DNA of 64,000 nt from a virus: the IMG/VR virus record IMGVR_UViG_3300009509_000010, positions 1 through 64,000 of that record; one strand, given 5' to 3'. A program made the position numbers and the translations under genes. Of this stretch, positions 4,798 through 26,745 are shown piece after piece; positions within the stretch are counted from its first letter, which is position 1; each line of letters starts with the position of its first letter. The notes beneath the pieces are model-generated. The model saw only the letters and a program-made list of their open reading frames with translations. It was not told the origin of the DNA and searched no databases.

Positions 4798-4800
4798 GCC

Positions 4801-5016: not shown

Positions 5017-5040
5017 AAAACACGATCGATCCATAGCCAA

Positions 5041-5061
5041 GCCCGCCCCTACGGGGCGGGC
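5041..5061. other. GC-rich hairpin between 19-bp direct repeats
   Basis: GCCCGCCCC-TAC-GGGGCGGGC perfect 9-bp stem; TGCCTAGAAAACACGATCG at 5010-5028 and 5074-5092. Confidence 0.7.
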
Positions 5062-5072
5062 GGGGGGATTGT

Positions 5073-5552
5073 ATGCCTAGAAAACACGATCGCTGCTCGG
5101 GCCATTGTTGCGAGCGGTTCACCTTGCCCCTATCCCCCGAGGAGCTCGCGGCCGGTTATCAGCGGTGGCTCGGGCGAGACAGCCAAGCCCTCACAATGAA
5201 CAAGGCTGAAATCGCGCCGCTTTATCAGGATATCTATTTGATTGCCCCCATGGTGGTCTACCTCGGGCACACCAACAAACACCCCCCAAAGGTCAACCCA
5301 ACCGACGCCGAGCTTTTGGGCAACCCCGAGGAGCAGGGCCATTATTACCGGTGCAAACACCTCGACCCCAAAACGCGGGATTGCACGATCTACGAGATCC
5401 GGCCCGCAATGTGTCGGGGTTACCCCTATAACAACGAGTGCAATTATGCGCGATGTACTTGGAAAAGCCGCAAGGCCAAAAAGCAGACCTCGGCCCAATT
5501 GCGCAAGCGCAAGCGGGCGTTGACGGCCGAGGTCGAGGAGCCGAGAAAATGA
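5073..5552 (+). CDS. YkgJ-family (CxxCxxCC-like) Fe-S/Zn-chelating protein
   Basis: CSGHCC ... CKHLDPKTRDCTIYEIRPAMCRGYPY signature. Confidence 0.85.
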   Translation: MPRKHDRCSGHCCERFTLPLSPEELAAGYQRWLGRDSQALTMNKAEIAPLYQDIYLIAPMVVYLGHTNKHPPKVNPTDAELLGNPEEQGHYYRCKHLDPKTRDCTIYEIRPAMCRGYPYNNECNYARCTWKSRKAKKQTSAQLRKRKRALTAEVEEPRK

Positions 5553-5941
5553 GATCTGATAATAAAACTAGGTTTATGAGCCGGTGCGTTCACTACAAGG
5601 GCCCATGGGACGCCACCAATTGCGCCGCGGGGGTGGAGCGTGCCACCATGTTAGATACCTCCCGAATCCCACCGCGGCGGGTCTGTGATTCACCTGACAC
5701 CACGATTGCTTGTGACAAAAAACAACTCCCCACCGAGGACGATTGGCATGCCAAGCAAGAACGAGACCTCGCGGCCTTGGGTCGTATGGCGGCGATCCGG
5801 TTGGCGATATTTGCCACCGGTGAGACCCAAGGATCGCTAGATTGCCCCTGTTGCAACGGCCGGGTGGGTTTTTCGATTGCAGGCAACGGCCACGTGGCCG
5901 CGGCATGCTCAACCCCGGGGTGTGCAAAATGGATCGAGTAG
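5549..5941 (+). CDS. Cys-rich hypothetical protein
   Basis: ATGA overlap with the previous gene; CVHY, CPCC and HVAAACSTPGC motifs. Confidence 0.65.
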   Translation: MRSDNKTRFMSRCVHYKGPWDATNCAAGVERATMLDTSRIPPRRVCDSPDTTIACDKKQLPTEDDWHAKQERDLAALGRMAAIRLAIFATGETQGSLDCPCCNGRVGFSIAGNGHVAAACSTPGCAKWIE

Positions 5942-10297: not shown

Positions 10298-10372
10298 GCA
10301 ACCTAGTCCAAGTCTATAACCTAGCAAGGGAAGCGGTTCGGGAACTCGCGAATATTGCAAGGGCGATCGATA

Positions 10373-12100
10373 ATGTCGCAATCTGCCTTCGAGAAAGCCC
10401 TCGAGATCATGGGCTACAAGCCCGAGGATGTGACACCACAATCGACCTTGGGCCGACTGTTGAGGGAAACGGGGCCACAGAAAACGCGAGAGTTTCGGAG
10501 GATCCACAACCTACCGCGGCGGACGTGGGAAAACGATCCGGATCTTCCGGAGCTAACGCGGCTCCTGACCCAGTTTTTACGGACCCCCGCGGGATCCATG
10601 TCCCTATGGCCAATTCAAGCGGCCGGTTTGCGTGAGATTCACGACGTGGGGGGCCTGTTCGGGCCCATGGCGGTATCGGCTGGCAAAACGCTGATCACGC
10701 TATTGGCCCCGGTGGTGCTCGGGGCCGAGCGGCCCCTCCTCGTGGTGCCCGCAGCTTTGCGGGAACAAACCAAACGGTTTGTGATCCCGCAAATGGCCAA
10801 CCATTGGCGGTTGCACCCCCACCTAAAAATTGTGGGGTATACCGAGTTGAGCTTGGCCAAAAACGCCGAGTTTCTTATAAAATACCGGCCGGATCTCATT
10901 ATCGCCGATGAATGCCACCGCCTCAAAAATACCCAAGCCGGGCGCACAAAACGCCTCGTTCGCTTTATGCGAGAGCACCCCGAAACCAAATTTGTAGGAC
11001 TATCGGGGACGGTGACCAACCGATCGATCAGGGACTACGCCCACATTTTGCGGTGGTGCCTTGGGGAGGGGACCCCGTTGCCCGACTCGTGGCAGGAGCT
11101 GAGCCAATGGGCCGACGCCCTAGACGAGGTCGACCCAAAAGAGGAGCCGGGGCCACCGGGTGCGCTCCAAGCTTGGGCCATCAATGGCAACGTTCGCAAG
11201 GGGTACCGCAACCGCCTAACCGAAACCCGTGGGGTGATCGCCACCGGGGAGGGTGAACTCGGGGTGAGCCTGCAAATTATATCAAGGAGGCCACCGGTTC
11301 CTGGCCACGTGGCCAAGCTGATCCAAACCATGGTCAACAAGTGGGTGACCCCATACGGTGAGGAGATCACCGAGGCGGTGGACTTGTGGCGCCACGTTCG
11401 CGAGCTTGCGTGTGGGTTCTATTACCGATGGGAGCCACCCCCGCCGGCGGAGTGGCTCGCGGCTCGCAAGGCTTGGAAAACTTACGTTCGTTACACTCTG
11501 CTACATAACCGCAGAAACCTAGACACCGAGCTACAGGTTTGGAACGAAGCCGCCCGAGCGGTAAAGCCACCACCGGAGTGGCGCGACTGGGTTGCGGTCA
11601 AAGATATTTACGAGATCAACACGGTGGCCGAGTGGGTGGACTTTTATGCCTTGGAGGACGCCACCAAGTGGCTCGAACAAGATCGCGGGATCGTTTGGAC
11701 CGAACATAACGCCTTTGGGGTGGAGCTCGCCAAGTTTTCGGGATTCTCCTACTTTGGGGCCGGCCCCAAGGCTAACGTCGGGATTCTCGAGCACAAGGGG
11801 CCTTGCATTGCCAGTATCCGGGCGCATTGCGAGGGCAAAAACTTGCAACACAACCACCACCGCAATCTAATCGTGACGCCACCGAGCTCTGGAAAAACAT
11901 GGGAACAGCTCCTCGGGCGAACCCACCGCCATGGCCAAAAAGCCGAGGAGGTGGTGGCCGAGGTCTATACTCAGGTGGCCGAGCTCGTGGCCAGTTTTCG
12001 CCAAGCTGTGAGGGACGCCCACTATCTCGAGGACACCCTCGGAAGCAGGCAAAAGCTGCTATATGCGGACATCAATTTCGACTTTTCGGGGGCCACATGA
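10373..12100 (+). CDS. Superfamily 2 (SNF2/DExH-like) helicase
   Basis: LWPIQ Q-motif, SAGKT, IADECH, LSGT, EQLLGRTHRHGQ; start uncertain. Confidence 0.88.
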   Translation: MSQSAFEKALEIMGYKPEDVTPQSTLGRLLRETGPQKTREFRRIHNLPRRTWENDPDLPELTRLLTQFLRTPAGSMSLWPIQAAGLREIHDVGGLFGPMAVSAGKTLITLLAPVVLGAERPLLVVPAALREQTKRFVIPQMANHWRLHPHLKIVGYTELSLAKNAEFLIKYRPDLIIADECHRLKNTQAGRTKRLVRFMREHPETKFVGLSGTVTNRSIRDYAHILRWCLGEGTPLPDSWQELSQWADALDEVDPKEEPGPPGALQAWAINGNVRKGYRNRLTETRGVIATGEGELGVSLQIISRRPPVPGHVAKLIQTMVNKWVTPYGEEITEAVDLWRHVRELACGFYYRWEPPPPAEWLAARKAWKTYVRYTLLHNRRNLDTELQVWNEAARAVKPPPEWRDWVAVKDIYEINTVAEWVDFYALEDATKWLEQDRGIVWTEHNAFGVELAKFSGFSYFGAGPKANVGILEHKGPCIASIRAHCEGKNLQHNHHRNLIVTPPSSGKTWEQLLGRTHRHGQKAEEVVAEVYTQVAELVASFRQAVRDAHYLEDTLGSRQKLLYADINFDFSGAT

Positions 12101-12369
12101 CAAGTTTTGACAACCGGTGCATTGACTGCGATAAACCGATTAGGGATTCGTTTGATCGGTGTTACGACTGCGATCAAGCGTATCGCGGTGAGGAACTGAA
12201 GCTCGAAGGCAAGCTATCGACTGAGACCGCCAAGGGGTATGGCGCCAAACTCAGGGGATACGGCGAGGAGATCGTTTGGTTTCCCAAGAGTTTGGTTGTG
12301 TTTCACGACGGGGCGTTTTGGGTCCCGCGGTGGTTGGCCCTCGAAAAAGACCTATTACCGGATGGGTAG
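12097..12369 (+). CDS. Hypothetical protein with N-terminal CxxC...CxxC
   Basis: ATGA overlap; CIDC, CYDC; WFPKSLV...VPRWLALEK. Confidence 0.65.
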   Translation: MTSFDNRCIDCDKPIRDSFDRCYDCDQAYRGEELKLEGKLSTETAKGYGAKLRGYGEEIVWFPKSLVVFHDGAFWVPRWLALEKDLLPDG

Positions 12370-12418
12370 CTGGTAACGGGTGACAGGTAACGGGAAACGT
12401 GCAACGGGAGCCTAAACC

Positions 12419-12901
12419 ATGTCCGATTTTGATGGGATTGAAAAAGCCCAAGTATTTAAGTCTTCTAACTATATTCTACCGGGGACTTATCCGATCTTGT
12501 TTATCAACAGTCTGAAAAAGATCCGGTCCCAAAAGAATGGCAACAAGCTATTTATCGCCGAGCTTGACATTATCGAGTCAAAGGTGGACGGGAGGCCACC
12601 TGGAACCGATATGTCTGCTATCTTCAACCTGACCAAACACGGCGAAACGGCTCTCGGGAACGTCAAGGCCCTCCTTGCGGCGGCGATTGATGTGCCCGAG
12701 GACAAGATTGATGCCAAAACCGCGGATCTCGCGGTTAGCTCTGAAAACCCGTTTCACGGACGGCTGATCCGGTGTGAGGCGGTAGACATTACGACGCGGG
12801 ACGGCGAACCGTTCACCAAGCCCAATTTTTCACCCCTACCGGCGGAGCTCCAAGCTCAAGCAGCCGAGCTCCACGAAAAGGCCGGTTTCGCACCGTTTTA
12901 G
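12419..12901 (+). CDS. Putative single-stranded DNA-binding protein (OB-fold, DUF669-like)
   Basis: Lies between helicase and polymerase; LPGTY motif, beta-rich core, C-terminal ...PF. Confidence 0.55.
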   Translation: MSDFDGIEKAQVFKSSNYILPGTYPILFINSLKKIRSQKNGNKLFIAELDIIESKVDGRPPGTDMSAIFNLTKHGETALGNVKALLAAAIDVPEDKIDAKTADLAVSSENPFHGRLIRCEAVDITTRDGEPFTKPNFSPLPAELQAQAAELHEKAGFAPF

Positions 12902-12910
12902 GTTCTTACG

Positions 12911-14803
12911 GTGGTGGTGATTGCCTTTGACCTCGAAACCGACCGGTTTCGACCGGGGCTAATGGCGCCCCCTCCGGTGTGTTTGTCTCACGCCCACGGC
13001 GAGGCCTCGGGCCTCAAAGTGGGCGGTGAGATCACAACCTACGCCGCATCAATTTTCGAGCACGCCCTCGAGGGCCACGCGTGTGTTGTGGGCCATAACG
13101 TGTCCTACGATATGGCGGTTTTGCTTGCCCACTGTCCTGAGCTCGCCGATTTCATTTGGGAGCTTTACGCAACGGGCCGAGTTCGGTGCACCATGGTGAG
13201 GGAAAAGCTGCTCGATATTGCCGAGGGGACACACGGGGGCGAGTGGGACGCAACGGGCGAGAAAAAGATCAAGAAAAACTATGATCTAGCAAGTATTGTC
13301 CTCAGGAAATGGCACGAAAAACGGGACAAAACAACTTGGCGGACCGGTTACGGCGAGCTTGCCCACGTGCCCGTCGAGCAGTGGCCGGCGGGGGCTGTGG
13401 AGTATGCGATCACCGACGCCACCGACGCCCTCAGGCTGTACAACGAACAAGAGGCCCGAGCGCACAAAATGCGTTACGGGTTACCGGATCAAGGCTCGCA
13501 AACTCGAGCGGATTTTGGTTTACGTTTGATGTCGGTGTGGGGGATCCGGACCGATGGTCATAGCGTTGATAAACTCAAGGAGGCCACCGATAGACGTTTC
13601 GAGGAGCTCAAATTTGACCTACAAGCGGTGGGCCTAGTCCGAACCAAACAGACACCCAAGGGCAAGGAGTCAAAAAACCAGGCCAAGATCCGGGATTTGG
13701 TCGAGCGGTCCTATTCGGGGCCGAGTATCCCTCGAACTGATAAAGGCTCGGTCAAAACGGATGCAGACACCTTGGAGCTTTGTGACGATCCTTTGGCCGC
13801 GGTTTTGCTCGAATATGTGAGCCTTGAAAAAAGCGCCGGGACGTTTATCAACAAGCTGCTCGAAGGGGTCGATGTGCCGATCCACCCCTCATTTAACGTG
13901 TTGGTGAATTCGGGCCGCACAAGTTGTTATAACCCAAACTTGCAACAACAACCGCGGGTGCCCGGGGTGAGGGAGTGTTTTAGGCCTCGAGACGGGTGGG
14001 TTTATATTGCGTGCGACTATGACAGCCAAGAGCTGAGGACGTGGGCCCAAGTGTGTCTCGACCTCACCGGGTCGAGCACCCTTGCCGAAAAATACCAGGC
14101 GGATCCCGATTTTGATCCACACCTCGATTTTGCTGCGGGACTTTTAGGCCTCGACTATTCCGAGGCCCAACGGCGGAAAAAGCAAGGTGACCCAAAAGTT
14201 AAAGAGTATAGGCAACAAGCTAAGCCTGCGAATTTTGGGTTTCCTGTTGGGATGTCGGCCAAAACGTTTCTGACCTATGCCCGGGGCTATGGGTTGATTA
14301 TCGACGAGGACCGGGCCAACAAGTTGCGCCAAAGGTGGTATAAACAATGGCCCGAGTCACAAGATTATTTCAAATTGATCAATCAACAAGTGGGCCAAGC
14401 CGGTGTGGGCGATATCGTCCAACTACGATCGGGCCGCAAGCGGGGCTTGTGCCGCTACACGGTGGCCGCTAACAGCTATTTTCAAGGCCTTGCGGCTGAC
14501 GCCAGCAAGCTGGCCCTATGGCACGTTTCGAGGGCCTGTTATCAAGACCGAAAGTCACCGTTGTTTGGGTGTCGGCCGGTGATTTTTTTGCACGACGAGA
14601 TCATAATGGAATCCCCCGAGGCCTACGCCCACCTAGCGGCCCCCGAGCTCGAGCGGGTTATGGTCGAGGCAATGGCGCAATTCACGCCTAACGTGCCATG
14701 CCGCGCCACCGCGGCATTGATGCGACGGTGGGCCAAAGGGGCCGAGCCCGTCTATATCAACGGTCGGTTGGTGCCCTACGAGGACGTGAGGGGTGCGGCA
14801 TGA
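12911..14803 (+). CDS. Family A DNA polymerase with 3'-5' exonuclease domain
   Basis: Exo motifs FDLETD, GHNVSYD, YAITDA; GRTSCYNPNLQQQP; motif A DYDSQELR; motif B RQQAKPANFGFPVG; motif C LHDE. Confidence 0.95.
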   Translation: MVVIAFDLETDRFRPGLMAPPPVCLSHAHGEASGLKVGGEITTYAASIFEHALEGHACVVGHNVSYDMAVLLAHCPELADFIWELYATGRVRCTMVREKLLDIAEGTHGGEWDATGEKKIKKNYDLASIVLRKWHEKRDKTTWRTGYGELAHVPVEQWPAGAVEYAITDATDALRLYNEQEARAHKMRYGLPDQGSQTRADFGLRLMSVWGIRTDGHSVDKLKEATDRRFEELKFDLQAVGLVRTKQTPKGKESKNQAKIRDLVERSYSGPSIPRTDKGSVKTDADTLELCDDPLAAVLLEYVSLEKSAGTFINKLLEGVDVPIHPSFNVLVNSGRTSCYNPNLQQQPRVPGVRECFRPRDGWVYIACDYDSQELRTWAQVCLDLTGSSTLAEKYQADPDFDPHLDFAAGLLGLDYSEAQRRKKQGDPKVKEYRQQAKPANFGFPVGMSAKTFLTYARGYGLIIDEDRANKLRQRWYKQWPESQDYFKLINQQVGQAGVGDIVQLRSGRKRGLCRYTVAANSYFQGLAADASKLALWHVSRACYQDRKSPLFGCRPVIFLHDEIIMESPEAYAHLAAPELERVMVEAMAQFTPNVPCRATAALMRRWAKGAEPVYINGRLVPYEDVRGAA

Positions 14804-17813: not shown

Positions 17814-19280
17814 ATGGGCGAGCCGATCCCATTGTTACCTACCGGTGACAAGCTGGCCACGGCGGGCCGGGATGCATTGATCGACTATTTCGATCATTGC
17901 AAATCAATGGCCAACGAGTGGATTTATCGCCAGGTGGTGGAAAACCAACGCGTTGATATTTTGGCCGCGATCCTTGGTTATTCTGTTCAACCGTTTCACC
18001 TGGCCCTAATGAAGTTTCAGATCGAGCACCCGGACAATTTGCAGCTTTGTTTTCGAGGTGCGGGCAAAACCACCACGTGTACCGTGACCCGGGCGATCTT
18101 TATGATGATCCGAAACCGGGACATCAGGATTTTGATCGCGAGCAAAACCAAGGGCAACGCCGAGGCTTTTTTGAAGGAGATCAAGGGCCACCTCGAGGAA
18201 AATTCTCGGTTGATCGAGATCTTCGGGGCCTTTTACGATCCCAACTTGGTGGGTAAGTGGGACAATACCGAGATCGAGATCCTTGGCCGCAAACGCAAAT
18301 CAAAAGAGAGCACGATCACGGTGGTTGGTGTTTCGGGCGCGGTCGTTTCAAAGCACTATGATGCGATCTTGGCCGACGATTTGGTGGATGAGGAAAACGC
18401 CCGAACCAAGTATATGCGGGACCGGACAAAGCAATGGTATTACCAGACCCTTTACCCTACGCTCGAGCCACCCGAGCTGGGCCACCTACACCGGGGCGAG
18501 TTTCACCGACTTGGAACACGATACCATTTTGACGATTTATGGGGCCACCTATTGGCCAACGAACTCAAGGACGATCACCAAATCATCCCAGCGCTCGACG
18601 AAAAAGAGCGCTCGCCTTGGCCTGAAAAGTACCGTCCCGATTGGTTCAAAAAGAAACGCGAGATATCAGGGACGATTATTTTCAACGCACAATACCAGTG
18701 TGACACCGAGGCGATGAAAGGGGCGATCTTTCAATATGATGATTGCCAGCTCGTTGACGCCGATAACGTGCCTTTGAATCTCAAAAAGTTTATGGGGGTG
18801 GACCTCGCGATCACGGAATCGGAGCAAAACGACTTGTTTGTGATCGTGGTGGGTGGGTTTGATTCGGTCGAAAATTGTTACGTGTTAGACTATTTCCAAG
18901 GTCACCTTCGTTTTGCGGCTCAGACATTGGCGATCAAACGGTACTACAAAAAACATGATCCGATCCGAGCGGCGATTGAGACGAATAGTTACCAGGCGGC
19001 CCAATATCAACACCTGAAAGACGAAGATCAAAGCTTGCGTTTGATGCCTTGCCATACCGAAAAAGACAAAATTTCACGAGCTTGGAAATTGTCGTCGAGG
19101 TTCGAACGTAAGCAAATGTTTTTCGTCAAGGGTGGCAATATGCATCATTTGATCGAGGCGTTGGTTTTGTTTCCAAGCCACCGCTACAAAGATCCGTTTG
19201 ACGGGCTCGACCTCATGATCCGGGCGAGCAAGTTACGACGTCGCCGCAAACGGCGGGGTCGAGAGCCGGGGTTGATGTAA
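17814..19280 (+). CDS. terL: Terminase large subunit
   Basis: Walker A FRGAGKTT, Walker B ILADDL, GTRYH, nuclease GVDLA...D; position before portal. Confidence 0.93.
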   Translation: MGEPIPLLPTGDKLATAGRDALIDYFDHCKSMANEWIYRQVVENQRVDILAAILGYSVQPFHLALMKFQIEHPDNLQLCFRGAGKTTTCTVTRAIFMMIRNRDIRILIASKTKGNAEAFLKEIKGHLEENSRLIEIFGAFYDPNLVGKWDNTEIEILGRKRKSKESTITVVGVSGAVVSKHYDAILADDLVDEENARTKYMRDRTKQWYYQTLYPTLEPPELGHLHRGEFHRLGTRYHFDDLWGHLLANELKDDHQIIPALDEKERSPWPEKYRPDWFKKKREISGTIIFNAQYQCDTEAMKGAIFQYDDCQLVDADNVPLNLKKFMGVDLAITESEQNDLFVIVVGGFDSVENCYVLDYFQGHLRFAAQTLAIKRYYKKHDPIRAAIETNSYQAAQYQHLKDEDQSLRLMPCHTEKDKISRAWKLSSRFERKQMFFVKGGNMHHLIEALVLFPSHRYKDPFDGLDLMIRASKLRRRRKRRGREPGLM

Positions 19281-21031
19281 TGTCCGACGCACAAAACCAA
19301 ACGAGCAACAAAGCCAACAAACGGGCTTTGAAGGCCACCATTATCGGCGTGCAAAAACAAGCGAAAACCTCGGTGGAGCCGGGACAGTCCAAGGCCCTCG
19401 CCGAGGACCCGTTCGAGGCGTTGACCTCCGAGGGGCGGCTGATCGAGCCCCCGTTCGATATGCTCACCTTGGCCATGTTGCCCGAACATTCGAGCGAGCT
19501 CGGCCAGTGTATTGAAGCAATGGAGGTGAATATCGAGGGGTTTGGTTATCGGTTTGTGCCCCGGATCCGCTCCGATGTCGATATGGCCGACGTAAACCCC
19601 GATTTGATCGAGGCAATGCGCCGGGAACGGATCGATTTGGTCAACTTTTTTCAATACGTTTCGGGTCGAAACAGTTGGACCGAAACAAGGCGGCGGTTGC
19701 GGCGAGACCTCGAAACGACGGGAAACGGTTATCTCGAAGTGGTTCGCAATGCAGCTGGTAAAATCCAAAGCCTAAATCACTTGCCATCCTATCAAATGCG
19801 GCTTGGTGGCCTCGACCAGGAGCCCATAAAGGTGTCATTGCCGATCCACGAGCTCCAAGGGGATGGCTCGGTGCGGATCGTTCGGGTGCCCTCGTGGGAG
19901 CGGTTTCGACGATACGCCCAAAGCAGGTCGTTGATCCTTCGCCATGCCACACATGTGGGCAAGTATGCGATCCGGTGGTTCAAAGATTTTGGTGACCCCC
20001 GTGTTTATGATTACGAGACGGGCGAGGAGGTTAGGGGCGAGGAGATCGCCAAACTCCCACCGGAGCGGCGGGCCAACGAGCTGATCCACTGTAAGCTTTA
20101 CAGCTCGAGGAGTCCCTATGGTTTACCCCGAACGATTGGCAACCTACTTTCGATCTTTGGAGCTCGAGCGGCTGAGGAGATTAACTATAATACATTTAAA
20201 TGCAATAATATCCCCAACATGTTGCTTTTGGTGTCAAACGGGCAGCTTACCGAGGGGTCGATCGAGCGAATTGAGGACTTTGTTGAATCCCAAATCCAAG
20301 GCTCAGACAACTACAGCAAATTTCTATTGATTGAGGCCGAGGCTCTTGGCGAGGAGGGCGAGGATACCGGACACGTCAAGATCGCGATCGAAAAGCTGAT
20401 CGACAGTCAACACAAGGACGCCTTGTTCCAAAATTACTCGGGCAACGCCGATGATCGGATCCGGCGGGCGTTTAGGTTGCCACCGATTCACGTGGGCAAG
20501 GCGGACGAATACACCCGAGCCACCGCCGAGACCTCGCGAAGGTTGGCCGACGAGCAAATTTTTGCACCCGAGCGGGATGCCCATGACGATGTGATCAACC
20601 GGTTGGTGTTTCCCGACATGGGGGTGATTTACCACAAGTATAGGTCAAACACTCCAAACACCACCGACAACGCCGAGCTTGTGAAGATCCTTGCGGGTGC
20701 CGAAAAAACCGGCGGAATGACGCCGAGAATTGCCCGGATTATGCTCGAGGACATTTTGGGTCAGGATTTGCCCGGTTTCCCAAAGGAGTTTGTGGACAAA
20801 GCCGATATGCCATTTTCGCTTTTGATGGCCGAGGCGGTCAAAAACAAGGCCGACCCCACCGAGCCGGGCCAACAGGTGACGGCGATCAAGGCCCTCGACC
20901 TAATCGAAAAACTCACCGGCGGCGAGCTTGCCGAGGCCGAGGAGGCCGAGCTTGCAAAAACCGCGGTGGCGATCAATCGACATTTTGAAAAGCGGTGGCG
21001 AGCTGAGGTCAAAACGCAGCTTGCGGGATAA
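19280..21031 (+). CDS. Portal protein (PBSX/HK97-like)
   Basis: DLETTGNGYLEVVRN, YGLP, FRLPPIHVG, YTRATA; follows TerL. Confidence 0.92.
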   Translation: MSDAQNQTSNKANKRALKATIIGVQKQAKTSVEPGQSKALAEDPFEALTSEGRLIEPPFDMLTLAMLPEHSSELGQCIEAMEVNIEGFGYRFVPRIRSDVDMADVNPDLIEAMRRERIDLVNFFQYVSGRNSWTETRRRLRRDLETTGNGYLEVVRNAAGKIQSLNHLPSYQMRLGGLDQEPIKVSLPIHELQGDGSVRIVRVPSWERFRRYAQSRSLILRHATHVGKYAIRWFKDFGDPRVYDYETGEEVRGEEIAKLPPERRANELIHCKLYSSRSPYGLPRTIGNLLSIFGARAAEEINYNTFKCNNIPNMLLLVSNGQLTEGSIERIEDFVESQIQGSDNYSKFLLIEAEALGEEGEDTGHVKIAIEKLIDSQHKDALFQNYSGNADDRIRRAFRLPPIHVGKADEYTRATAETSRRLADEQIFAPERDAHDDVINRLVFPDMGVIYHKYRSNTPNTTDNAELVKILAGAEKTGGMTPRIARIMLEDILGQDLPGFPKEFVDKADMPFSLLMAEAVKNKADPTEPGQQVTAIKALDLIEKLTGGELAEAEEAELAKTAVAINRHFEKRWRAEVKTQLAG

Positions 21032-22050
21032 TGCCAGTTGGAAACCTGTTCGATCAGGTCCGGGCCACCGACGAAACCGTGGCCAAGGCCCTCGGGATCT
21101 CCGAGGTGGCCCAGATTGCTCGAACAGAAACCAGGCTGAGGGAATACCTACTAGCCGAATGGAATAGCCGAGCTCGTGAGGCCGTAACCCAGGCGGCGGC
21201 GGGTGCTCGAGGAGGCGCAATCCCAAGCAAGATTTATCGGGAAGTGTCTGGAATTTTAAAGCCGTGGGGACCCGAGGTTGCCCCAAGGGTCGGGCGAGAG
21301 CTCGGAAAAATTTACCGGTTGGCCAAGGTGGCCGGATGGCGCAAGGCCACCGGGCAAACCAAGGCCCCATTGACGTATGACACACCCAATTTTGAACAAA
21401 TGGCCAAGGCCGCACCTCGTGATGGTTTCGCGGTTTTGCCCACGTTTGACAAGCTCGACACCGACACAATTGACGCCCTAGCCAATCAACAAGTTTTTTG
21501 GCTCGCGGCCCACTACGAGGAAAACGTGGGCGCAATGATCGCCTCGACTGTCTCGGAGGTGATGGCCCAAGAGGGGAGAAACCGTCAAGTTGCGGCGGCG
21601 GTTTTGCGGGAACGGCTAGCCGAAACCCTTGGGCAAGTGGTGACCCCGGCCGGGTGGCATGGGTCAACGCGGCAATATATGGAAGGGGTGGCCGCTAATG
21701 CTGCCACCGTTGGGCGTGCCTATGGCCAAGTGGCCGCGTTCAACGAGGCCGAGGTTATTCGCTACGAGATCGTCAACCCAACCGACGAGCGAACATGCCC
21801 GGTTTGTTCGCACATGGATGGCAAGGTATTTTCGACCGAGCATGCAAACCGCCAAGTGGCGGCCGAGCTCGAGGCCGAAAACCGGGAAGATATAAAGTCA
21901 ATTCATCCGTGGTATACCTACGCTAAGCTAACCGATATCAGCCCCAAGGCGGGTAACGTGAGCCCCCAAGACTCCGCCGCGCTAGCCAAGGCCGGTTACC
22001 CGTTGCCACCGTTCCATTTTCGGTGCCGTTGCGCGATCGATGTGAGTTAG
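21031..22050 (+). CDS. Minor head protein (SPP1 gp7 / Mu gpF-like)
   Basis: DERTCPVCSHMDGKVF ... PPFHFRCRC. Confidence 0.9.
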   Translation: MPVGNLFDQVRATDETVAKALGISEVAQIARTETRLREYLLAEWNSRAREAVTQAAAGARGGAIPSKIYREVSGILKPWGPEVAPRVGRELGKIYRLAKVAGWRKATGQTKAPLTYDTPNFEQMAKAAPRDGFAVLPTFDKLDTDTIDALANQQVFWLAAHYEENVGAMIASTVSEVMAQEGRNRQVAAAVLRERLAETLGQVVTPAGWHGSTRQYMEGVAANAATVGRAYGQVAAFNEAEVIRYEIVNPTDERTCPVCSHMDGKVFSTEHANRQVAAELEAENREDIKSIHPWYTYAKLTDISPKAGNVSPQDSAALAKAGYPLPPFHFRCRCAIDVS

Positions 22051-22059
22051 GAGGCCACC

Positions 22060-24648
22060 ATGCAAACCTCGATTACCTCGACTCGAAGGCGAGCCCGCCG
22101 GGCCCGCGTTGCCAAAACCATAACTACCGACGCGGTCGCCACAAGCGGCAAACTTGACGCCGCGAGTTTGCCCGGTGGTAGCGGGATCACCGAGTTGTTT
22201 GGTCTAGCCGTGACCAAAACCGCAGCGGACAAAATTTTTGCAGGTAAGGTCAAGGCGATTGCTAAAACCACCGATCACAATTTTGCAGGCCAGTTAGTGT
22301 TGATGTTGGTCAAAGGGCAAGCGGTGGGCGAGGTGGAGTTTGGCGAGCGGCTCGACTCCAAAACGTGGGCCGTTAAAACCACCAAGATTTTTGACCGGCC
22401 CAAGGCCACCAACGTGCCCGAGGCCGCCGAGGGTGTGGTGGGCGGGGTGCGGGTGCTCGAACGCCGCAAGGCGACATCAATTGATGAGCCGGTAACAAAA
22501 CAACGGGCTAGGGCCTACAACCCGAGCCGCGTGGTTGACCGGGTCCTTTTGTCTGACGTGCGAACCCTTGCCCAATGGGGCGAGGAGGTGGCGTTGAAAA
22601 AGGCCCTCGCCGAGGTAAAGCGCCGTGGTTTGGAGGTCGAGCGGCCCGATAAACTCGAGCTTGCCCCGGACAGTGAGATCGAAACCTTCGCCACCGTCGA
22701 GCTCGTGGCAGCTCACCAAGCGATCCATGTCAACAAGGGGTGGAGCTCCGAGGATATGGTGGGGACGCATGCCCGTATCGTGGCGGAGCTCGCCGATCGA
22801 GGCGTGCCACACCCCGAACCACCGCCGGGGTTGGATGCTCAATCGGTTGTTTTCGAGCCGGCCCGAGTGGCGGTTCTAAAATCAGCGGCCGAGGAGGCCC
22901 TTGGGGAGATCGTGGCAGCGGTCGAGCGATACCCCGTGTTGGTCCACAAGCGGGTCGAGGGGCGGCCGGTTACGGTCAGCAAAGCCAAGGATCAGGTCAA
23001 GGTGGTGGCCGAGGACGGGGCCGATTTAACCGCCGAGGTTCCCGCGGTCGTTGAAACGATCCGAGCTCTCAAATCCGAGGCGGTGGAGCTCGAGGGGGTT
23101 CTCGAGCCATGGCATGGGGGCGAGGTTTTCCAGGTTCAAGATCTCAGCTATGACGGCCGAGACCTCCGGGATTGGCCCGTTAGCAAGCGGCTCGAGCGGC
23201 TCGCCGAGCTTGGGATCCCGCAAGCTACAAGCGCAATTCCGAGCTTGACGGCCCCCGTCAACGAGTTACCCCCGTTGGAGGCGACCACCGCCGAAACGCT
23301 CGAGCGGGCGATCCGTGTGGTCAAACGGTTGCCCGGTAGTGTTGGGGCCGTGGTCAAGCCCGCCGAGTCGGTGGACCCGGGCGAATGGTTGGAGCTCGAG
23401 GCCGAGCCCGTAACCAAGCTCGAATCAAAAGGCCCTCAAAAATTTGTATTGTGGGCAAATCAACTTTTGGTGGGCGACCGAGCGGGAAAATTGGCCGAGC
23501 GGTGGATCTTGGATTCCACCGACGTCGAGACCACCGAGCAAATCGCCAAACGGGCGGCCCCCGTTCCCAAGGATGCTTTGTCCGCCGGTGTCGGTGGGGT
23601 GACTGATCACGGTGAGGTCGAAACGGGGGCGGTCAAACCGTGGTTGCGGGAATATTTTTTGCGAGGCCAAACAACGGGCAACCGGTTGTTGATCCGCAAG
23701 CTTACGTTTGGTGAGCTGCAAAAGGCCCAACATTCATACACCCAATGTATGGCATGCAAGGCGGCCCCCGAAATTGATGTTTTGTGGGCCGACGGGCGTG
23801 GGCGGGCGTGGTTTTGTAAGGGTTGTTATCCAAAGTGGCTCCACAAAGGGGGCGGCTCCAAAGACCTCGAGGTAATCGGTACCAAAGCGATTATCGGCGG
23901 TCGAGCCCCAGCGAAGTATTCGGACCGTCATAATCGGGTGACAACTACCAAGGCCGCCGAGCCACACCCTCTCGGTGGTTGGCTTGTGGTGCGGGCAAAA
24001 GACCCGACGCCTTCGGTCCTTACCGGTGAGGCCGTAACCAAACGGTGGATCCCGCCGCTTGGTGTGTCAGCTTTGCCCGAGGTGGTGGCCGAGCAGGTGC
24101 CTACCGAGCTCGCCTATTGGCGGGCCCAGACATTGGCTGAGGCTCGAGAGCTCCGAGATCAGCTTGTGTCAAAGATCGACACAAAGGAGATCGAGCTCGA
24201 TTTGACCACAGTTTACACTGCCAAACCATCAAATCCGATCACCGAGGTGTCAACCAATGACACCGAGGGGACGGCGGATCTCTTTGTTCCTATTGCCAAA
24301 ATTGACACCGACCGGCAAATTGTGACAGGGATTGTATTAGAGCCGGGCGAGGTTGATGCTCAAAACGACACCGTTAGCGATGAAGTTATCGAGCGGGCCT
24401 CGATCAATTTTCTTTCCCGGTATAATTCCGAAACCCAGCTAGGTTTGATGCACAAGGCCTTTGGAGACATAGGCCTGCAACTTGCCGCTAGTTGGGTAGC
24501 ACTGACAAATCAAACGCTTGGCAAAAAGAAAGTTAAGCGGGGCTCGTGGCTGATGTCAATGAAGGTTATCGATTCGAAACTTTGGGAACGCGTCAAAAAG
24601 GGCGAGTTTACCGGATTTTCGATCGGTGGCGTGGCCAAGGTGCGTTAA
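22060..24648 (+). CDS. Multidomain head protein: degenerate ASCH-like, ligase-like and phosphoesterase-like modules plus C-terminal XkdF-type prohead serine protease
   Basis: C-terminal IVTGIVLEP..DAQND, GLMH, W..VKKGEFTGFSIGG; central DGRDLRDWPVSKRLERL ligase-like signature. Confidence 0.75.
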   Translation: MQTSITSTRRRARRARVAKTITTDAVATSGKLDAASLPGGSGITELFGLAVTKTAADKIFAGKVKAIAKTTDHNFAGQLVLMLVKGQAVGEVEFGERLDSKTWAVKTTKIFDRPKATNVPEAAEGVVGGVRVLERRKATSIDEPVTKQRARAYNPSRVVDRVLLSDVRTLAQWGEEVALKKALAEVKRRGLEVERPDKLELAPDSEIETFATVELVAAHQAIHVNKGWSSEDMVGTHARIVAELADRGVPHPEPPPGLDAQSVVFEPARVAVLKSAAEEALGEIVAAVERYPVLVHKRVEGRPVTVSKAKDQVKVVAEDGADLTAEVPAVVETIRALKSEAVELEGVLEPWHGGEVFQVQDLSYDGRDLRDWPVSKRLERLAELGIPQATSAIPSLTAPVNELPPLEATTAETLERAIRVVKRLPGSVGAVVKPAESVDPGEWLELEAEPVTKLESKGPQKFVLWANQLLVGDRAGKLAERWILDSTDVETTEQIAKRAAPVPKDALSAGVGGVTDHGEVETGAVKPWLREYFLRGQTTGNRLLIRKLTFGELQKAQHSYTQCMACKAAPEIDVLWADGRGRAWFCKGCYPKWLHKGGGSKDLEVIGTKAIIGGRAPAKYSDRHNRVTTTKAAEPHPLGGWLVVRAKDPTPSVLTGEAVTKRWIPPLGVSALPEVVAEQVPTELAYWRAQTLAEARELRDQLVSKIDTKEIELDLTTVYTAKPSNPITEVSTNDTEGTADLFVPIAKIDTDRQIVTGIVLEPGEVDAQNDTVSDEVIERASINFLSRYNSETQLGLMHKAFGDIGLQLAASWVALTNQTLGKKKVKRGSWLMSMKVIDSKLWERVKKGEFTGFSIGGVAKVR

Positions 24649-25502
24649 TGGCGACAAAAGATCAACTCGCAAAGGCTCGGGAACTCTTGGATCTAGACGT
24701 CCGGGAGGTCTCGTTGGTTGACCGGCCCGCAAACTTGCGGCCGTTTTTGATTGTGAAACGTCAAACCGAGGACCACCTCGGTGAGTTTGAGATCGAGCCC
24801 TCGGTTGTCGAGTGGCTGGAAAAAGTGGCGGTGTCCCCTGGGGCCCCCACCGAGTCAATTCGGGCCTTGACGGCCGTTTTAGCAGGAGGTGAACCCGTGG
24901 ACCCCAAACAAGAGACCAAAGATCAGGCTGAGGACCAAGCCGTGGATCAGAATGCCACCGCGGCCGAACCCACCGCCGAACCCGTAACGAAAACCGAGCC
25001 GGCGGCCGAACCCGAGACCGTAACCGAGGCCGAGCCGGCGGCCGAACCCGTGGCCAAGAATGAGCCTATGGCGGAGCCAGATCCGGACGATCAACCCATG
25101 GTGGTGATCAAGCGGGATGGTTCGATCCATGTGTCCGGACAACAGGTTCAAAAAGCCAAGACCTTTGGCAAGGCGAAAACCGCCACCTTGCAAAACGCGG
25201 TTAGTGCGTTGGCCAAGTTGCTTGGTGACGTATCCGAGGACGCACTAAAGGCGGCCATGTTGCCCTATTCGGATCCAACGAAAAAAGTGGACACCACCAA
25301 GGCCGTGGATCCGGAACAGACAAACACCGCGGATCCGATTGAGTTGATCACCAAGGCGGTGGCCTCGGCCCTCGAGCCAATCACCAAGCGGCTCGACGAG
25401 ATCGAGAAAACTCGCAATCCGTCTCAGTCCGTCGAGGGTGACGGCGGGACCGAAAGCCGACAAACCAAGGTCAACAAATCAATTTGGGCCGGGGTGCTCT
25501 AG
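24648..25502 (+). CDS. Scaffold protein with N-terminal EVSLVDRPAN protease-like segment
   Basis: EVSLVDRPAN motif, acidic AEP-repeat linker, coiled coil; directly precedes the major capsid gene. Confidence 0.75.
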   Translation: MATKDQLAKARELLDLDVREVSLVDRPANLRPFLIVKRQTEDHLGEFEIEPSVVEWLEKVAVSPGAPTESIRALTAVLAGGEPVDPKQETKDQAEDQAVDQNATAAEPTAEPVTKTEPAAEPETVTEAEPAAEPVAKNEPMAEPDPDDQPMVVIKRDGSIHVSGQQVQKAKTFGKAKTATLQNAVSALAKLLGDVSEDALKAAMLPYSDPTKKVDTTKAVDPEQTNTADPIELITKAVASALEPITKRLDEIEKTRNPSQSVEGDGGTESRQTKVNKSIWAGVL

Positions 25503-25545: not shown

Positions 25546-26745
25546 ATGTCAGGTATCCCAAACGAAGAGCTGATCGCCAAAGCGGTAATCACAACCGACG
25601 CGTTGGCCGCAAATGGCAAACTCAATGATAAGCAGTCCGACATGTTCATCGATTACGTGATCGACGAGTCGGTTTTGAAAAACAACGCCAGGGTGGTCAA
25701 GTTTCGCAACGAAAACTTGAACATTGACAAGATCGGCGTAGGTGGCCGGGTGGCCTACCCCAAAGCTGAGGCCGCGGATCCGGGCCACCGCCGAGGCGTG
25801 TCAACGAGTCAAATTCAGTTGACACCACGAGAAATCATCGTCCCGTTCGAGATCGGTGACCTGTTCAAGGAGGTATCCCTTGAGGCACCCGAGCGAATCG
25901 AGGACCACATTATCAAAATGATGGCCGCGCAACTGGCCAACGATATGGAAGAGCTCTATATCCTTGGCGATACGGTGGGGCCAGCGATCCTTGAGTCGGA
26001 ATATCACGACAACGGAAGCTCGACCCAATACGTCAAGGACAGCTATTTGGCCTTGGCCGACGGGTGGAGCCGGTTGGCCGACGGGGCCAATGTGGTGGAC
26101 GCGCAAGGAGCCAACATTGGGCTGAGCATTTTCGGCCAAATGTTGCGAGCCATGCCCACCAAATTCCGACGCAACAAGCGGGCCCTCCGGTGGTTCCTGA
26201 GTCCCGACCTTTGGCAGCTCTACAGTGAAAAACTGAGCACCCGCGCCACCGCGCTCGGTGACTCCGCCGCGGGCGGGGGCGATCATGGCCCCTATGGTGT
26301 CAGTGCGGTTGAGGTGCCTTTGTGGCCGTTGCAACCCAAGGTGGTGCAACATGTGCAATTGAACGGGACCACCGCGGTCGCGTTGCGGTTTGGGCCGATC
26401 TCTAGCGTGGTCGTTTCAACCGAGACGCTTGGAGCGACACCCGAGACCCCGTTCGTTGAAACGACCGATTATGTTCTCGACACAACGGCGGGCACGATTG
26501 CCAGAACCGGTGGTGGGTCGATCGGTGATGGTGATACGGTCAAAGTGACCTATGATGCCAATCCGCAAGTTTTGCTAACCCATATGAACAATTTCATCGT
26601 GGGTATCGGTCGGGATATCAAGATCGAAAAAGACCGCAATATTTACAAGGGCGTGAACGAATACGCGATCCACGCCCGCGTTGCGGTTCAATTCGAGGAA
26701 CTGACGGCGATCGTCAAAGCCAAAAACATCGGAACAGGCGTATAA
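25546..26745 (+). CDS. Major capsid protein (HK97 fold) with an inserted beta domain
   Basis: Strong SD GAGGAGG; G.LN..QSDMFIDYVIDES, LANDMEEL..LGD; position after scaffold. Confidence 0.9.
   Translation: MSGIPNEELIAKAVITTDALAANGKLNDKQSDMFIDYVIDESVLKNNARVVKFRNENLNIDKIGVGGRVAYPKAEAADPGHRRGVSTSQIQLTPREIIVPFEIGDLFKEVSLEAPERIEDHIIKMMAAQLANDMEELYILGDTVGPAILESEYHDNGSSTQYVKDSYLALADGWSRLADGANVVDAQGANIGLSIFGQMLRAMPTKFRRNKRALRWFLSPDLWQLYSEKLSTRATALGDSAAGGGDHGPYGVSAVEVPLWPLQPKVVQHVQLNGTTAVALRFGPISSVVVSTETLGATPETPFVETTDYVLDTTAGTIARTGGGSIGDGDTVKVTYDANPQVLLTHMNNFIVGIGRDIKIEKDRNIYKGVNEYAIHARVAVQFEELTAIVKAKNIGTGV

What the first reader, a model, noticed from the sequence alone, without database searches (positions are those of the whole stretch)
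22060..24648. Prohead protease fused to a chain of systematically inactivated DNA-repair-like modules (pseudo-ligase polyprotein)
Seen: the C-terminal ~120 aa is an intact XkdF-type protease (GLMH, GFSIGG). Region 22930-23400 follows the ATP-dependent DNA ligase adenylation domain in order, but each catalytic motif is altered: I KxDGxR -> RVEGRP, III DGE -> EGV, IIIa FD -> QD followed by a preserved DGRDLRDWPVSKRLERL, IV EGxxxK -> VGAVVK, V WxKxK -> WLELE. Downstream (~23430-24180) resembles a LigD-type phosphoesterase scaffold (DHGEVETG...REYFLRG) without His ligands and carries a CxxC..CxxC insert. The N-terminus resembles a degenerate ASCH/PUA domain plus two E(L/V)xxRG helical repeats. Inference: a packaged head polyprotein whose cargo enzymes have become pseudo-enzymes yet stay in frame, possibly as DNA-end-binding ejected proteins, decoys for host defence, or an internal scaffold. 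This is the best candidate for an undescribed system in the window.
Basis: partly seen in the sequence, partly recalled or inferred. Interest (0 to 1): 0.85.

Follow-up and report, generated by a model that had tools for sequence, protein, structure and literature searches.

The report
Head protease carrying dead DNA-repair domains
An uncultured phage makes its only recognisable capsid-maturation protease as the tail end of an 862-residue protein. The rest of that protein is a DNA ligase and a DNA-end-cleaning enzyme that have both lost their catalytic residues but are still kept by selection, so they probably serve as non-catalytic head cargo.

Summary
ORF 22060-24648 (862 aa) lies between the portal/MuF genes and the scaffold/capsid genes of a 78.8-kb virus record.

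- **Protease:** the C-terminus is an intact XkdF-type protease (Pfam E 1e-25; H798 and S854 invariant).
- **Ligase domain:** aa 280-437 are homologous to the ATP-dependent DNA-ligase adenylation domains of relatives (96.8 bits against an HMM of 56 intact modules). Five of seven core catalytic residues are replaced, including the adenylated lysine.
- **Phosphoesterase (PE) domain:** aa 459-652 fold as a LigD 3'-phosphoesterase (Z 12.7). The His/Asp/Arg metal-site residues are missing, and a 4-Cys zinc module is inserted.
- **N-terminus:** aa 46-133 are weakly ASCH-like (Z 8.5).

Relatives show graded decay from fully active ligase and PE. Ligase death occurred at least three times in the family. 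All modules remain under purifying selection (dN/dS 0.05-0.37).

The best reading is a capsid-targeted "polyvalent" protein whose repair enzymes became non-catalytic modules, probably nucleic-acid binders. Packaging, processing and ejection are inferred, not shown.

The class was predicted in 2017. This scan has noted active ligase-PE-XkdF versions on other DNA 29 times, so this is a new variant of a known kind.

The parts
22060..22194 (+). N-terminal leader (aa 1-45): a basic RRRARRAR stretch followed by a conserved 'K.ITS.A...GKL..A.LPGGSG' peptide. It is predicted to be disordered.
   Evidence: pLDDT is below 50. A local jackhmmer search finds the same peptide within about the first 60 residues of roughly 20 family representatives with different downstream domains.
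22195..22464 (+). ASCH/PUA-like beta-barrel domain (aa 46-135).
   Evidence: The model has pLDDT 80-90 here. Foldseek's top hits are ASCH, YTH and EOLA1 entries (1wk2, E 4.6e-3). VIA-wide gives Z 8.5 (1wk2), 8.0 (6kir) and 7.6 (5guq). There is no Pfam hit.
22465..22914 (+). Helical region (aa 136-285). It includes a widely shared His-rich module (aa ~196-268) that ends in HPxPP..LDxxSxxFE.
   Evidence: Helices come from DSSP on the model. H219 is invariant, and H223, H237, H251, P252, P254, P255 and D259 are nearly invariant. The module is found in 76 of 155 family members. No clear structural match was found.
22897..23400 (+). Pseudo-ligase: an ATP-dependent DNA-ligase adenylation (NTase) domain (aa 280-447) with 5 of 7 core catalytic residues replaced. 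The loop between motifs III and IIIa is missing. The ~200-aa segment that follows motif V in intact relatives is also missing.
   Evidence: 96.8 bits against the HMM of intact modules; a profile built only from the dead clade still hits PDB DNA ligases (4eq5, E 2.2e-4); the NTase-to-PE gap is 11-12 aa, against a median of 250.
23434..23715 (+). Pseudo-PE, first part (aa 459-552): a LigD 3'-phosphoesterase beta-barrel without its metal and phosphate ligands, and with internal deletions.
   Evidence: Z 12.7 and 11.0. One search gives the residue table. One search shows the deletions relative to canonical relatives.
23716..23934 (+). Four-Cys zinc module inserted in the PE barrel (aa 553-625; C563, C566, C586, C589).
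   Evidence: The sequence shows the cysteines directly. Model residues 104-170 match B-box/RING-like entries only weakly (Z about 4-5). This is the most constrained part of the cargo: dN/dS 0.05 and 88-91% identity.
23965..24219 (+). Closing strand of the PE barrel plus a conserved helical extension ('module E', aa 636-720; WIPPLGVSALP..VP...YW).
   Evidence: The VIA alignments to PE run to model residues 197-202, which is aa 646-651. pLDDT is 90-98. The module is present in 146 of 155 family members.
24283..24645 (+). XkdF-type (Peptidase_S78_2, assemblin-like) serine protease domain (aa 742-862), with candidate catalytic residues H798 and S854.
24648..25502 (+). Scaffold-like gene (284 aa) whose start overlaps the polyprotein stop (TAATG). 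Its C-terminal half corresponds to the tail of single-gene XkdF-scaffold proteins.
   Evidence: phrog_3017 positions 263-395 match aa 164-278, while positions 39-154 of the same family match the XkdF domain of the polyprotein. The junction sequence is shown. Its N-terminal residues 2-28 are predicted to dock on the protease.
17814..22050 (+). Upstream head-module genes: large terminase (17814-19280), portal (19280-21031) and MuF-like minor head protein (21031-22050).
   Evidence: Pfam and PHROG hits. Loci L003 and L004 have the same gene order.
25546..26745 (+). Probable major capsid protein (399 aa).
   Evidence: phrog_1623 'virion structural protein', E 4e-68. It sits in the same position in L003 and L004.

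Best explanation
The gene encodes the phage's prohead-maturation protease (XkdF type) as the last domain of a 'polyvalent' head protein. The 740 residues in front of it descend from a LigD-like end-repair kit, an ATP-dependent ligase plus a 3'-phosphoesterase. In related phages that kit is catalytically intact and is often joined to DNA methylases or 2H phosphoesterases.

In this lineage the ligase lost its adenylated lysine and four other core residues. It also lost the segment after motif V, where ATP-dependent ligases have their OB domain. The phosphoesterase lost all its metal-site residues. The folds, the inserted zinc module and an ASCH-like domain have nevertheless been kept by purifying selection.

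Likely mechanism (inferred):
1. The protease domain is drawn into the assembling procapsid through the scaffold protein encoded by the overlapping next gene, and it carries the cargo in with it.
2. The protease then cuts the scaffold and the polyprotein.
3. The freed non-catalytic modules stay with the packaged DNA as nucleic-acid or DNA-end binders, possibly to be ejected with it.

Shown here: domain identities, loss of catalytic residues, selection, synteny. Inferred: encapsidation, cleavage, DNA binding, ejection.
For: - **Protease:** the XkdF domain is intact. It is the only recognisable head protease on the record: there is one PF14550 match and none for S78, ClpP or S49.
- **Ligase homology and loss:**. 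Relatives carry PF01068 at E ~1e-23.
- **PE fold without ligands:**
- **Graded decay:** P0009 and P0013 have a dead ligase but a canonical PE. P0007, P0008 and P0012 have partial PE loss. P0001-6 have lost both.
- **Persistence and recurrence:** the dead-ligase modules form a clade of 14 representatives with 50%-identity clustering (SH-aLRT 91), so the dead domain has lasted through deep divergence. P0134, P0144 and the P0027/42/64 group show further separate losses.
- **Selection:** dN/dS is 0.18-0.20 for the pseudo-ligase, 0.23-0.30 for the pseudo-PE, 0.05 for the zinc module and 0.07-0.09 for XkdF.
- **Synteny:** TerL-portal-MuF-polyprotein-scaffold-capsid is conserved in three loci, with polyproteins of 851 to 1478 aa.
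- **Split gene:** the next gene is the scaffold half of what phrog_3017 encodes as a single XkdF-scaffold protein.
- **Complex prediction:** XkdF (aa 735-862) with scaffold aa 1-70 scored 0.80 against a best control of 0.01. That mark was reached by 58 of 80 solved complexes and 2 of 110 mismatched pairs. The runs agree in at least 84% of contacts, and the partner's pLDDT is at least 54. My own alignments were used, so those counts hold only roughly. Scaffold residues 17-22 lie against S854 and H798. This supports binding but does not show it, and likeness to solved assemblin-type protease-peptide complexes cannot be excluded.
- **Literature:** assemblin-like peptidases are always C-terminal in polyvalent proteins and were predicted to process them during virion assembly (PMC5512222).
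Against: - No virion proteomics or expression data exist for this or any close relative, so packaging and ejection rest on gene position and analogy.
- The XkdF family itself is only a 'putative' protease, and its cleavage specificity is unknown. I found no recurring cut-site motif in the linkers.
- The protease domain ends at the C-terminus without the scaffold-like tail that targets many prohead proteases. Recruitment therefore depends on a predicted, untested interaction.
- The pseudo-PE core is the least conserved module (40-64% identity) and has suffered deletions, which fits partial decay.
- dS is near saturation for the comparisons that involve the window.
- The record is only about 78% complete, so an active ligase or a second protease could lie on the missing part.
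Confidence: 0.55

Rival explanations
1. Assembly role only. The dead ligase/PE/zinc modules are kept as a structural adaptor or internal core. They might position, space or restrain the protease inside the procapsid, or fill volume like an internal scaffold. They would then be degraded or expelled before DNA packaging, and would have nothing to do with nucleic acids or the host.
For: The PE-E block lies upstream of the protease in nearly all relatives: PE in 143 and E in 146 of 155, against 105 for the ligase. It sits immediately upstream where no second PE-like barrel intervenes, as in this protein. That suggests a role tied to the protease rather than to repair. The zinc module and module E are the most constrained cargo parts (dN/dS 0.05-0.20). 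Catalysis has been lost repeatedly without loss of the folds.
Against: Most relatives keep complete catalytic sets: 54 of 85 ligases, and 61-76 of 84 at each PE ligand position. Enzymatic action on nucleic acid is therefore the ancestral point of the cargo. All four cargo folds (ASCH-like, NTase, PE, zinc module) are nucleic-acid-handling types. A pure spacer would not need them conserved at dN/dS about 0.2.
Confidence: 0.25
2. Decaying relic. After an active ligase/PE cargo became unnecessary, the region has been drifting. It survives only because a frameshift or stop would also remove the essential downstream protease.
For: There are many deletions relative to intact relatives: the loop between motifs III and IIIa, the ~200-aa segment after motif V, and two PE segments. 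The branch leading to P0001-6 is long (1.39). Identity in the pseudo-PE core is low.
Against: dN/dS is 0.18-0.37 in every module rather than near 1. The pseudo-ligase is 77-83% identical among three phages whose linkers are only 29-54% identical. The dead-ligase clade spans 14 representatives at 50%-identity clustering. An in-frame deletion would be an easy way to shed a useless region, yet about 740 residues remain.
Confidence: 0.08
3. The enzymes are still active and use non-canonical residues. For example, the lysine just before the lost nucleophile (K290), which is conserved in the whole dead clade, might take over adenylation.
For: K290 aligns with the first K of the canonical 'KKYDG' and is kept in P0001-P0013. 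The motif I glycine and motif IV lysine are retained.
Against: Five of seven core residues are gone at once, across motifs I, III, IV and V, and so is the motif IIIa aromatic. The segment after motif V, where the OB domain needed for nick sealing sits in known ligases, is absent. The PE lacks every metal ligand.
Confidence: 0.05

Closest known systems
Phage-type polyvalent proteins with a C-terminal assemblin-like peptidase (Iyer, Burroughs, Anand, de Souza, Aravind 2017, PMC5512222)
   Same: A large multidomain phage protein encoded in the head module next to portal and MuF genes, with the capsid-maturation-type peptidase as its last domain. It was predicted to be processed during virion assembly and delivered with the DNA.
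   Different: The main text of that paper does not mention DNA ligase, LigD phosphoesterase or ASCH domains. Here the cargo domains are catalytically dead, whereas polyvalent proteins are described as batteries of active enzymes. The paper does note an inactive PBECR domain in phage Mu MuF.
Bacterial LigD (non-homologous end-joining ligase: POL, PE and LIG domains, working with Ku)
   Same: It combines an ATP-dependent ligase adenylation domain with a 3'-phosphoesterase barrel in one polypeptide. The PE fold match is strong (Z 12.7 and 11.0).
   Different: There is no polymerase domain. Nothing after motif V corresponds to an OB domain. The order is LIG then PE. A zinc module is inserted in the PE and a helical extension is added. 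The catalytic residues of both enzymes are lost. It is fused to a phage protease. Ku was not looked for on the record.
Active ligase-PE-XkdF polyproteins of uncultured phages
   Same: The module order is the same (leader, ASCH-like or other N-terminal domains, His-rich helical module, ligase, PE with module E, XkdF) and so is the genomic position.
   Different: Those proteins keep KxDGxR, the motif III, IV and V residues and the PE His/Asp/Arg set. They are 1000-2300 aa long, with extra MTase or 2H domains and a second PE-like barrel. P0001 is a stripped 862-aa version with both enzymes dead.
Single-gene XkdF protease-scaffold proteins (phrog_3017, about 400 aa; PBSX XkdF type)
   Same: The XkdF domain (profile positions 39-154) and the scaffold-like tail (positions 263-395) are both present in this phage.
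   Different: Here the two halves are separate genes joined by a TAATG overlap. The protease half also carries 740 residues of cargo at its N-terminus.
ANMV-1 archaeal virus 'ATP-dependent DNA ligase' AJP62006.1 (KP703175)
   Same: It is the only record in the isolate/GenBank phage collection that matches the ligase-PE-E block of the family: 28.7% identity to P0024 over residues 668-1632.
   Different: The match stops before the XkdF domain and there is no sign of a protease fusion. The window's own protein finds only XkdF-domain matches in that collection.

Membership tests
XkdF / Peptidase_S78_2 (PF14550) | Score above the Pfam gathering threshold over the whole domain | tested here: met
   90.4 bits against a cut-off of 24, profile positions 5-123 of 126. 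The six-frame genome search gives 94.7 bits.
XkdF / Peptidase_S78_2 (PF14550) | Conserved His and Ser of the assemblin-like catalytic site | tested here: met
   H798 and S854 are invariant in A3. Their assignment as catalytic residues rests on general knowledge of assemblin/HK97-type proteases, not on an assay.
XkdF / Peptidase_S78_2 (PF14550) | Proteolytic activity on scaffold or capsid proteins | not testable with these tools
   The only evidence is a predicted docking of scaffold residues 17-22 at S854/H798.
ATP-dependent DNA ligase adenylation domain (PF01068) | Sequence homology to the family | tested here: met
   P0001 itself has no direct Pfam hit. It scores 96.8 bits against an HMM of 56 intact relatives that carry PF01068 at E ~1e-23. 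A profile of the dead clade alone finds PDB DNA ligases as its only hits.
ATP-dependent DNA ligase adenylation domain (PF01068) | Motif I KxDGxR with the nucleophilic lysine | tested here: not met
   The motif reads RVEGRP: K->R, D->E, R->P.
ATP-dependent DNA ligase adenylation domain (PF01068) | Motif III Glu, IIIa aromatic, IV Glu-Gly..Lys, V Lys | tested here: not met
   E->V, F->Q, E->V (Gly and Lys kept), K->E.
ATP-dependent DNA ligase adenylation domain (PF01068) | OB-fold domain after motif V | tested here: inconclusive
   Only 11-12 aa separate the NTase from the PE, against a median of 250 in intact relatives. The OB identity of that segment in relatives was not confirmed by Pfam or PDB sequence search.
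LigD 3'-phosphoesterase (PF13298) | PE beta-barrel fold | tested here: met
   Z 12.7 (3p4h_A, rmsd 1.9 A, 97 aa) and Z 11.0 (3n9b_A). The top seven Foldseek hits are all PE domains. P0001 has no Pfam hit, and two relatives have weak ones.
LigD 3'-phosphoesterase (PF13298) | His/His/Asp metal ligands with the Arg and His that contact phosphate | tested here: not met
   H1, H2 and D are deleted, R2 is Q and H3 is R. The same positions are kept in 61-76 of 84 relatives.
ASCH domain (PF04266, PUA-like) | Sequence match or the GxKxxExR signature | tested here: not met
   Neither P0001 nor the relatives have a Pfam hit. The corresponding stretch reads AGKVKAIAK. The signature itself is recalled from the literature, not retrieved here.
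ASCH domain (PF04266, PUA-like) | ASCH/PUA-like beta-barrel fold | tested here: inconclusive
   Seven of the top ten VIA-wide hits are identifiable ASCH entries, but Z is only 6.5-8.5, within the range the tool calls middling. Foldseek's best E is 4.6e-3.
Polyvalent proteins (Iyer et al. 2017) | Two or more unrelated effector-type domains in one phage polypeptide, with an assemblin-like peptidase at the C-terminus if present, encoded by head-module genes | tested here: met
   There are five recognisable modules plus a C-terminal XkdF. The gene lies between MuF and the scaffold.
Polyvalent proteins (Iyer et al. 2017) | Packaged in the virion and delivered into the host | not testable with these tools
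   No proteomic or expression data were available.

The most novel reading that the evidence does not exclude
The dead LigD-like modules are not leftovers. They would be a dedicated class of capsid-delivered DNA-end binders. Freed by the head protease, the pseudo-ligase (nick and 5'-phosphate recognition), the pseudo-PE with its zinc module (3'-end recognition) and the ASCH-like domain would sit on the termini of the packaged genome. They would enter the cell with it and shield the ends from RecBCD-type nucleases, or from end-sensing defence systems, without needing ATP. Repeated independent loss of catalysis in the family would then mark repeated shifts from 'repair the break' to 'hide the end'.
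Probability: 0.2. Interest if true: 0.75.

Novelty: new variant of a known kind. Interest (0 to 1): 0.55.

Why it matters
**Packaged proteins.** Proteins packed into phage heads and injected with the DNA are an under-explored layer of the phage-host arms race; known examples are T4 internal proteins, P1 Dar and N4 vRNAP. A large family of uncultured phages attaches a LigD-like repair kit to the head protease, and the papers I could search do not describe this.

**A natural experiment.** This member shows what remains when catalysis is removed. The folds, the zinc insert and the extension next to the protease all persist under selection. That points to a second, non-catalytic function of these domains, either DNA-end binding or capsid targeting, which would also apply to the active versions.

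**A testable recruitment route.** The split protease/scaffold gene pair and the predicted docking of the scaffold N-terminus in the protease cleft suggest how XkdF-type proteases, which are barely studied, are recruited.

Tried and rejected
- **Direct searches of aa 1-740:** Pfam, PHROG and PDB sequence searches gave nothing useful. Homology appeared only through relatives.
- **Isolate phage collection:** P0001 matches only XkdF domains at 36% identity or less. Nothing in cultured phages matches the cargo.
- **Prophages in species-representative genomes:** there were no relatives with P0001. The only hit with alignment A3 was a weak 99-residue match in an alphaproteobacterial MAG. Alignment A2 was too divergent to seed a scan.
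Synteny and dN/dS therefore rest on three IMG/VR loci only.
- **Polyprotein-scaffold fusion by frameshift or readthrough:** rejected. The scaffold frame is -1 in the window but 0 in L003 and L004. The stops are TAA, TAA and TAG. A slip at the AAAAAG site would remove the catalytic serine.
- **Shared cut-site motif between linkers and the docked scaffold peptide:** none was convincing.
- **ASCH membership by sequence in relatives:** no Pfam hit.
- **Literature:** searches for XkdF, polyvalent proteins, DNA ligase and prohead protease found no description of this architecture.
- **Other enzymes on the record:** no second ligase (PF01068) and no S78, ClpP or S49 protease were found. The S77 search had no positive control, and the record is about 78% complete.
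- **Tree:** the careful search did not finish. Only the quick IQ-TREE result was used.
Full report
**What is there.** The window comes from a 78.8-kb linear IMG/VR virus record estimated to be 78% complete. ORF 22060..24648 (+) is one open frame of 862 codons. It lies in a head-morphogenesis block:
- large terminase, 17814-19280
- portal, 19280-21031
- MuF-like minor head protein, 21031-22050
- this ORF
- an acidic scaffold-like gene, 24648-25502
- a probable major capsid protein, 25546-26745

**Protease.** Pfam finds a single domain, XkdF/Peptidase_S78_2, at aa 745-860 (E 1.2e-25). PHROGs agree: phrog_3017 'head maturation protease', E 8.7e-29. H798 (GLMH) and S854 (GFSIGG) are invariant among relatives. 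No other head-protease family (S78, ClpP, S49) was found on the record. The S77 search had no positive control.

**Ligase-like domain.** Nothing in aa 1-740 hits Pfam or PDB directly. A search of 1.8 billion cluster representatives gave 672 relatives, most of them 1000-2300-aa proteins. Many carry PF01068, the ATP-dependent ligase adenylation domain, at E about 1e-23, along with D12 or C5 methylases or 2H phosphoesterases, and XkdF at the C-terminus.

I aligned the ligase module of 85 representatives. Canonical motifs are present in most: I KKYDGxR, III LDxEIE, IIIa NVFDVLY, IV SEGxVxK, V WVKFH. Of the 85, 54 are intact at all seven core positions. P0001 and its five close relatives read RVEGRP, EGV, QVQD, SVGAVVK and WLELE.

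Two results show that homology is not in doubt:
- An HMM built only from 56 intact modules scores P0001 aa 280-437 at 96.8 bits.
- A profile built only from the dead clade retrieves archaeal ATP-dependent DNA ligases as its only PDB hits (4eq5, E 2.2e-4).

P0001 also lacks the loop between motifs III and IIIa. It further lacks the roughly 200-250 residues that separate the adenylation domain from the next module in intact relatives, having 11-12 aa instead. ATP-dependent ligases have their OB domain in that place, but I could not confirm the OB identity of that segment.

**Phosphoesterase-like domain.** A model of aa 450-745 (pLDDT 80, pTM 0.66) matches LigD 3'-phosphoesterase domains and nothing else convincingly:
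- Foldseek's top seven hits are all PE domains.
- VIA-align gives Z 12.7 (3p4h_A, rmsd 1.9 A over 97 residues) and Z 11.0 (3n9b_A). The next hit has Z 4.8.

The barrel is built from aa 459-547 plus a closing strand at aa 641-646. Between them sits a four-cysteine module (C563, C566, C586, C589) that resembles B-box/RING-type zinc modules only weakly. After the barrel comes a well-predicted helical extension ('module E'), which is the most widespread piece of the family (146 of 155 members).

Relatives have the PE signature 'FVVQ(H)HWRGKxxHxDLRxE ... PWxHEYF'. The two His, the Asp, the Arg and the third His are kept in 61-76 of 84 representatives. In P0001-6 the first three are deleted and the others are Q and R.

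**N-terminal part.** A model of aa 1-285 (pLDDT 71) shows three regions:
- A disordered leader, aa 1-45.
- A beta-barrel, aa 46-133. Its best matches are ASCH domains (1wk2, EOLA1, ZmASCH, TRIP4), then YTH and EVE domains. The scores are only middling: Foldseek E 4.6e-3, Z 8.5 at best. There is no sequence support.
- Helices, aa 136-285, with no clear structural match.

'ASCH/PUA-like' is therefore a reasonable label for the fold, not a demonstrated family membership.

**Evolution.** Decay across relatives is graded:
- P0009 and P0013 have a dead ligase but a canonical PE.
- P0007, P0008 and P0012 have also lost some PE ligands.
- P0001-6 have lost everything and have deletions.

In a quick maximum-likelihood tree of the ligase modules, 14 dead representatives form one group (SH-aLRT 91) nested among intact ones. 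P0134 and P0144 are dead in other parts of the tree. P0027, P0042 and P0064 have lost motif I only. Catalysis has therefore been lost at least three times, and the dead domain has persisted through deep divergence.

I compared codon alignments of the window gene with two IMG/VR relatives, L002 and L003. dN/dS by module:

| Module | dN/dS |
|---|---|
| Pseudo-ligase | 0.18-0.20 |
| Pseudo-PE core | 0.23-0.30 |
| Zinc module | 0.05 |
| Module E | 0.13-0.20 |
| ASCH-like domain | 0.27-0.37 |
| XkdF | 0.07-0.09 |

dS is close to saturation for pairs that include the window. The L002-L003 pair (dS 0.5-0.9 in most modules) tells the same story. This is not a drifting spacer.

**Context and recruitment.** The order TerL-portal-MuF-polyprotein-scaffold-capsid recurs in L003 (851-aa polyprotein) and L004. 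The L004 polyprotein has 1478 aa, with a D12 methylase, a canonical PE and no ligase.

The gene after the polyprotein starts on the last base of its stop codon (TAATG). Its aa 164-278 match positions 263-395 of phrog_3017. Positions 39-154 of that same family match the XkdF domain. What many phages encode as one protease-scaffold protein is therefore split here. The protease half has no scaffold tail of its own.

A complex prediction of XkdF (aa 735-862) with scaffold residues 1-70 scored 0.80 against a best control of 0.01.
- That mark was reached by 58 of 80 solved complexes and 2 of 110 mismatched pairs.
- The runs agree in at least 84% of contacts, and the partner's pLDDT is at least 54.
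- My own alignments were used, so these counts hold only roughly.
- Scaffold residues 17-22 lie against S854, H798 and their neighbours.

The model supports binding, either as a substrate or as a docking peptide, but does not show it. Likeness to solved protease-peptide complexes cannot be excluded.

**Most likely mechanism.** The XkdF domain is the phage's prohead protease. It enters the procapsid through the scaffold and brings about 740 residues of cargo with it. The cargo is then cut free and remains as internal protein. Because the cargo's catalytic residues are gone while its nucleic-acid-handling folds are conserved, I think it most likely acts as a non-catalytic binder of the packaged DNA or its ends.

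My confidence differs by step:
- Domain identities and catalytic death: high.
- Encapsidation: moderate.
- DNA-end binding or ejection: low.

The rivals are a purely structural assembly role, a decaying relic, and residual activity through non-canonical residues such as K290.

**Comparison with what is known.** Iyer et al. (2017) defined polyvalent proteins. They noted that assemblin-like peptidases, when present, are always C-terminal and probably process the protein during virion assembly. Their main text does not mention DNA ligase, LigD or ASCH. My literature searches found no description of a ligase-PE-XkdF protein. In the GenBank phage collection, only the ANMV-1 archaeal virus 'ATP-dependent DNA ligase' matches the ligase-PE block of the family.

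This scan's own earlier notes list 29 findings of active ligase-PE-XkdF polyproteins in at least 20 other genomes, one of which mentions a dead ligase fold. Those are unchecked AI notes. My own family analysis agrees with them on the general architecture.

**Verdict.** This is a new variant of a known kind, a stripped polyvalent head protein with both enzymes dead. Its interest is moderate.

Noticed in passing
window 22060-22194 (aa 1-45): A conserved N-terminal peptide: a basic run followed by 'K.ITS.AL..GGKL.PA.GLPGGSG'. It heads about 20 family representatives whose next domains differ (ASCH-like, 2H phosphoesterase, helical module). In three proteins it lies behind an extra N-terminal domain. 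It could be a capsid-targeting or processing signal like the leader of T4 internal proteins.
   Followed up: partly
window 24648-25502: The scaffold-like gene starts on the last base of the polyprotein stop codon (TAATG). Its N-terminal 40 residues (including 'EVSLVD.PAN.R.FL.VKR') are conserved in three loci and are predicted to lie in the protease cleft. Its C-terminal half equals the tail of single-gene XkdF-scaffold proteins (phrog_3017).
   Followed up: partly
window 22645-22863 (aa ~196-268): A His-rich helical module with H219 invariant and H223, H237 and H251 nearly invariant. It ends in 'HPxPP..LDxxSxxFE' and is present in 76 of 155 relatives, usually just upstream of the ligase. The HxxxH spacing resembles a zincin motif, but the Glu is not conserved. 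It could be a metal site, a docking element or a cleavage region.
   Followed up: no
relatives P0008, P0009, P0014, P0015, P0024 and many others (between module E and XkdF): Many relatives carry a second barrel of about 150 aa ('FVLQEQTWRGP...HYLNPTK..PS') that matches the PE profile but has Gln or Glu where the first PE has its His residues. It is absent from the window's protein, which has a 20-aa linker instead.
   Followed up: no
L004:6294-10730: The syntenic polyprotein of a 46%-identical relative has 1478 aa. It has an extra N-terminal domain, a D12 adenine methylase and a canonical PE, and a Cys-rich segment where the ligase would be. This shows module swapping in an otherwise fixed head-gene order.
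   Followed up: partly
L001 (KP703175.1) 3200-5800: The ANMV-1 archaeal virus gene annotated only as 'ATP-dependent DNA ligase' (866 aa) matches the ligase-PE-module E block of this family at 28.7% identity to P0024. It therefore probably also contains an unannotated PE domain.
   Followed up: no
window 8576-14803 and 56731-63555: The record also encodes a PD-(D/E)XK nuclease-domain protein, a helicase-like protein and a family A DNA polymerase with a 3'-5' exonuclease. It further encodes a 2274-aa tail protein with a weak endosialidase-like segment. No tRNA genes were found in the window.
   Followed up: no
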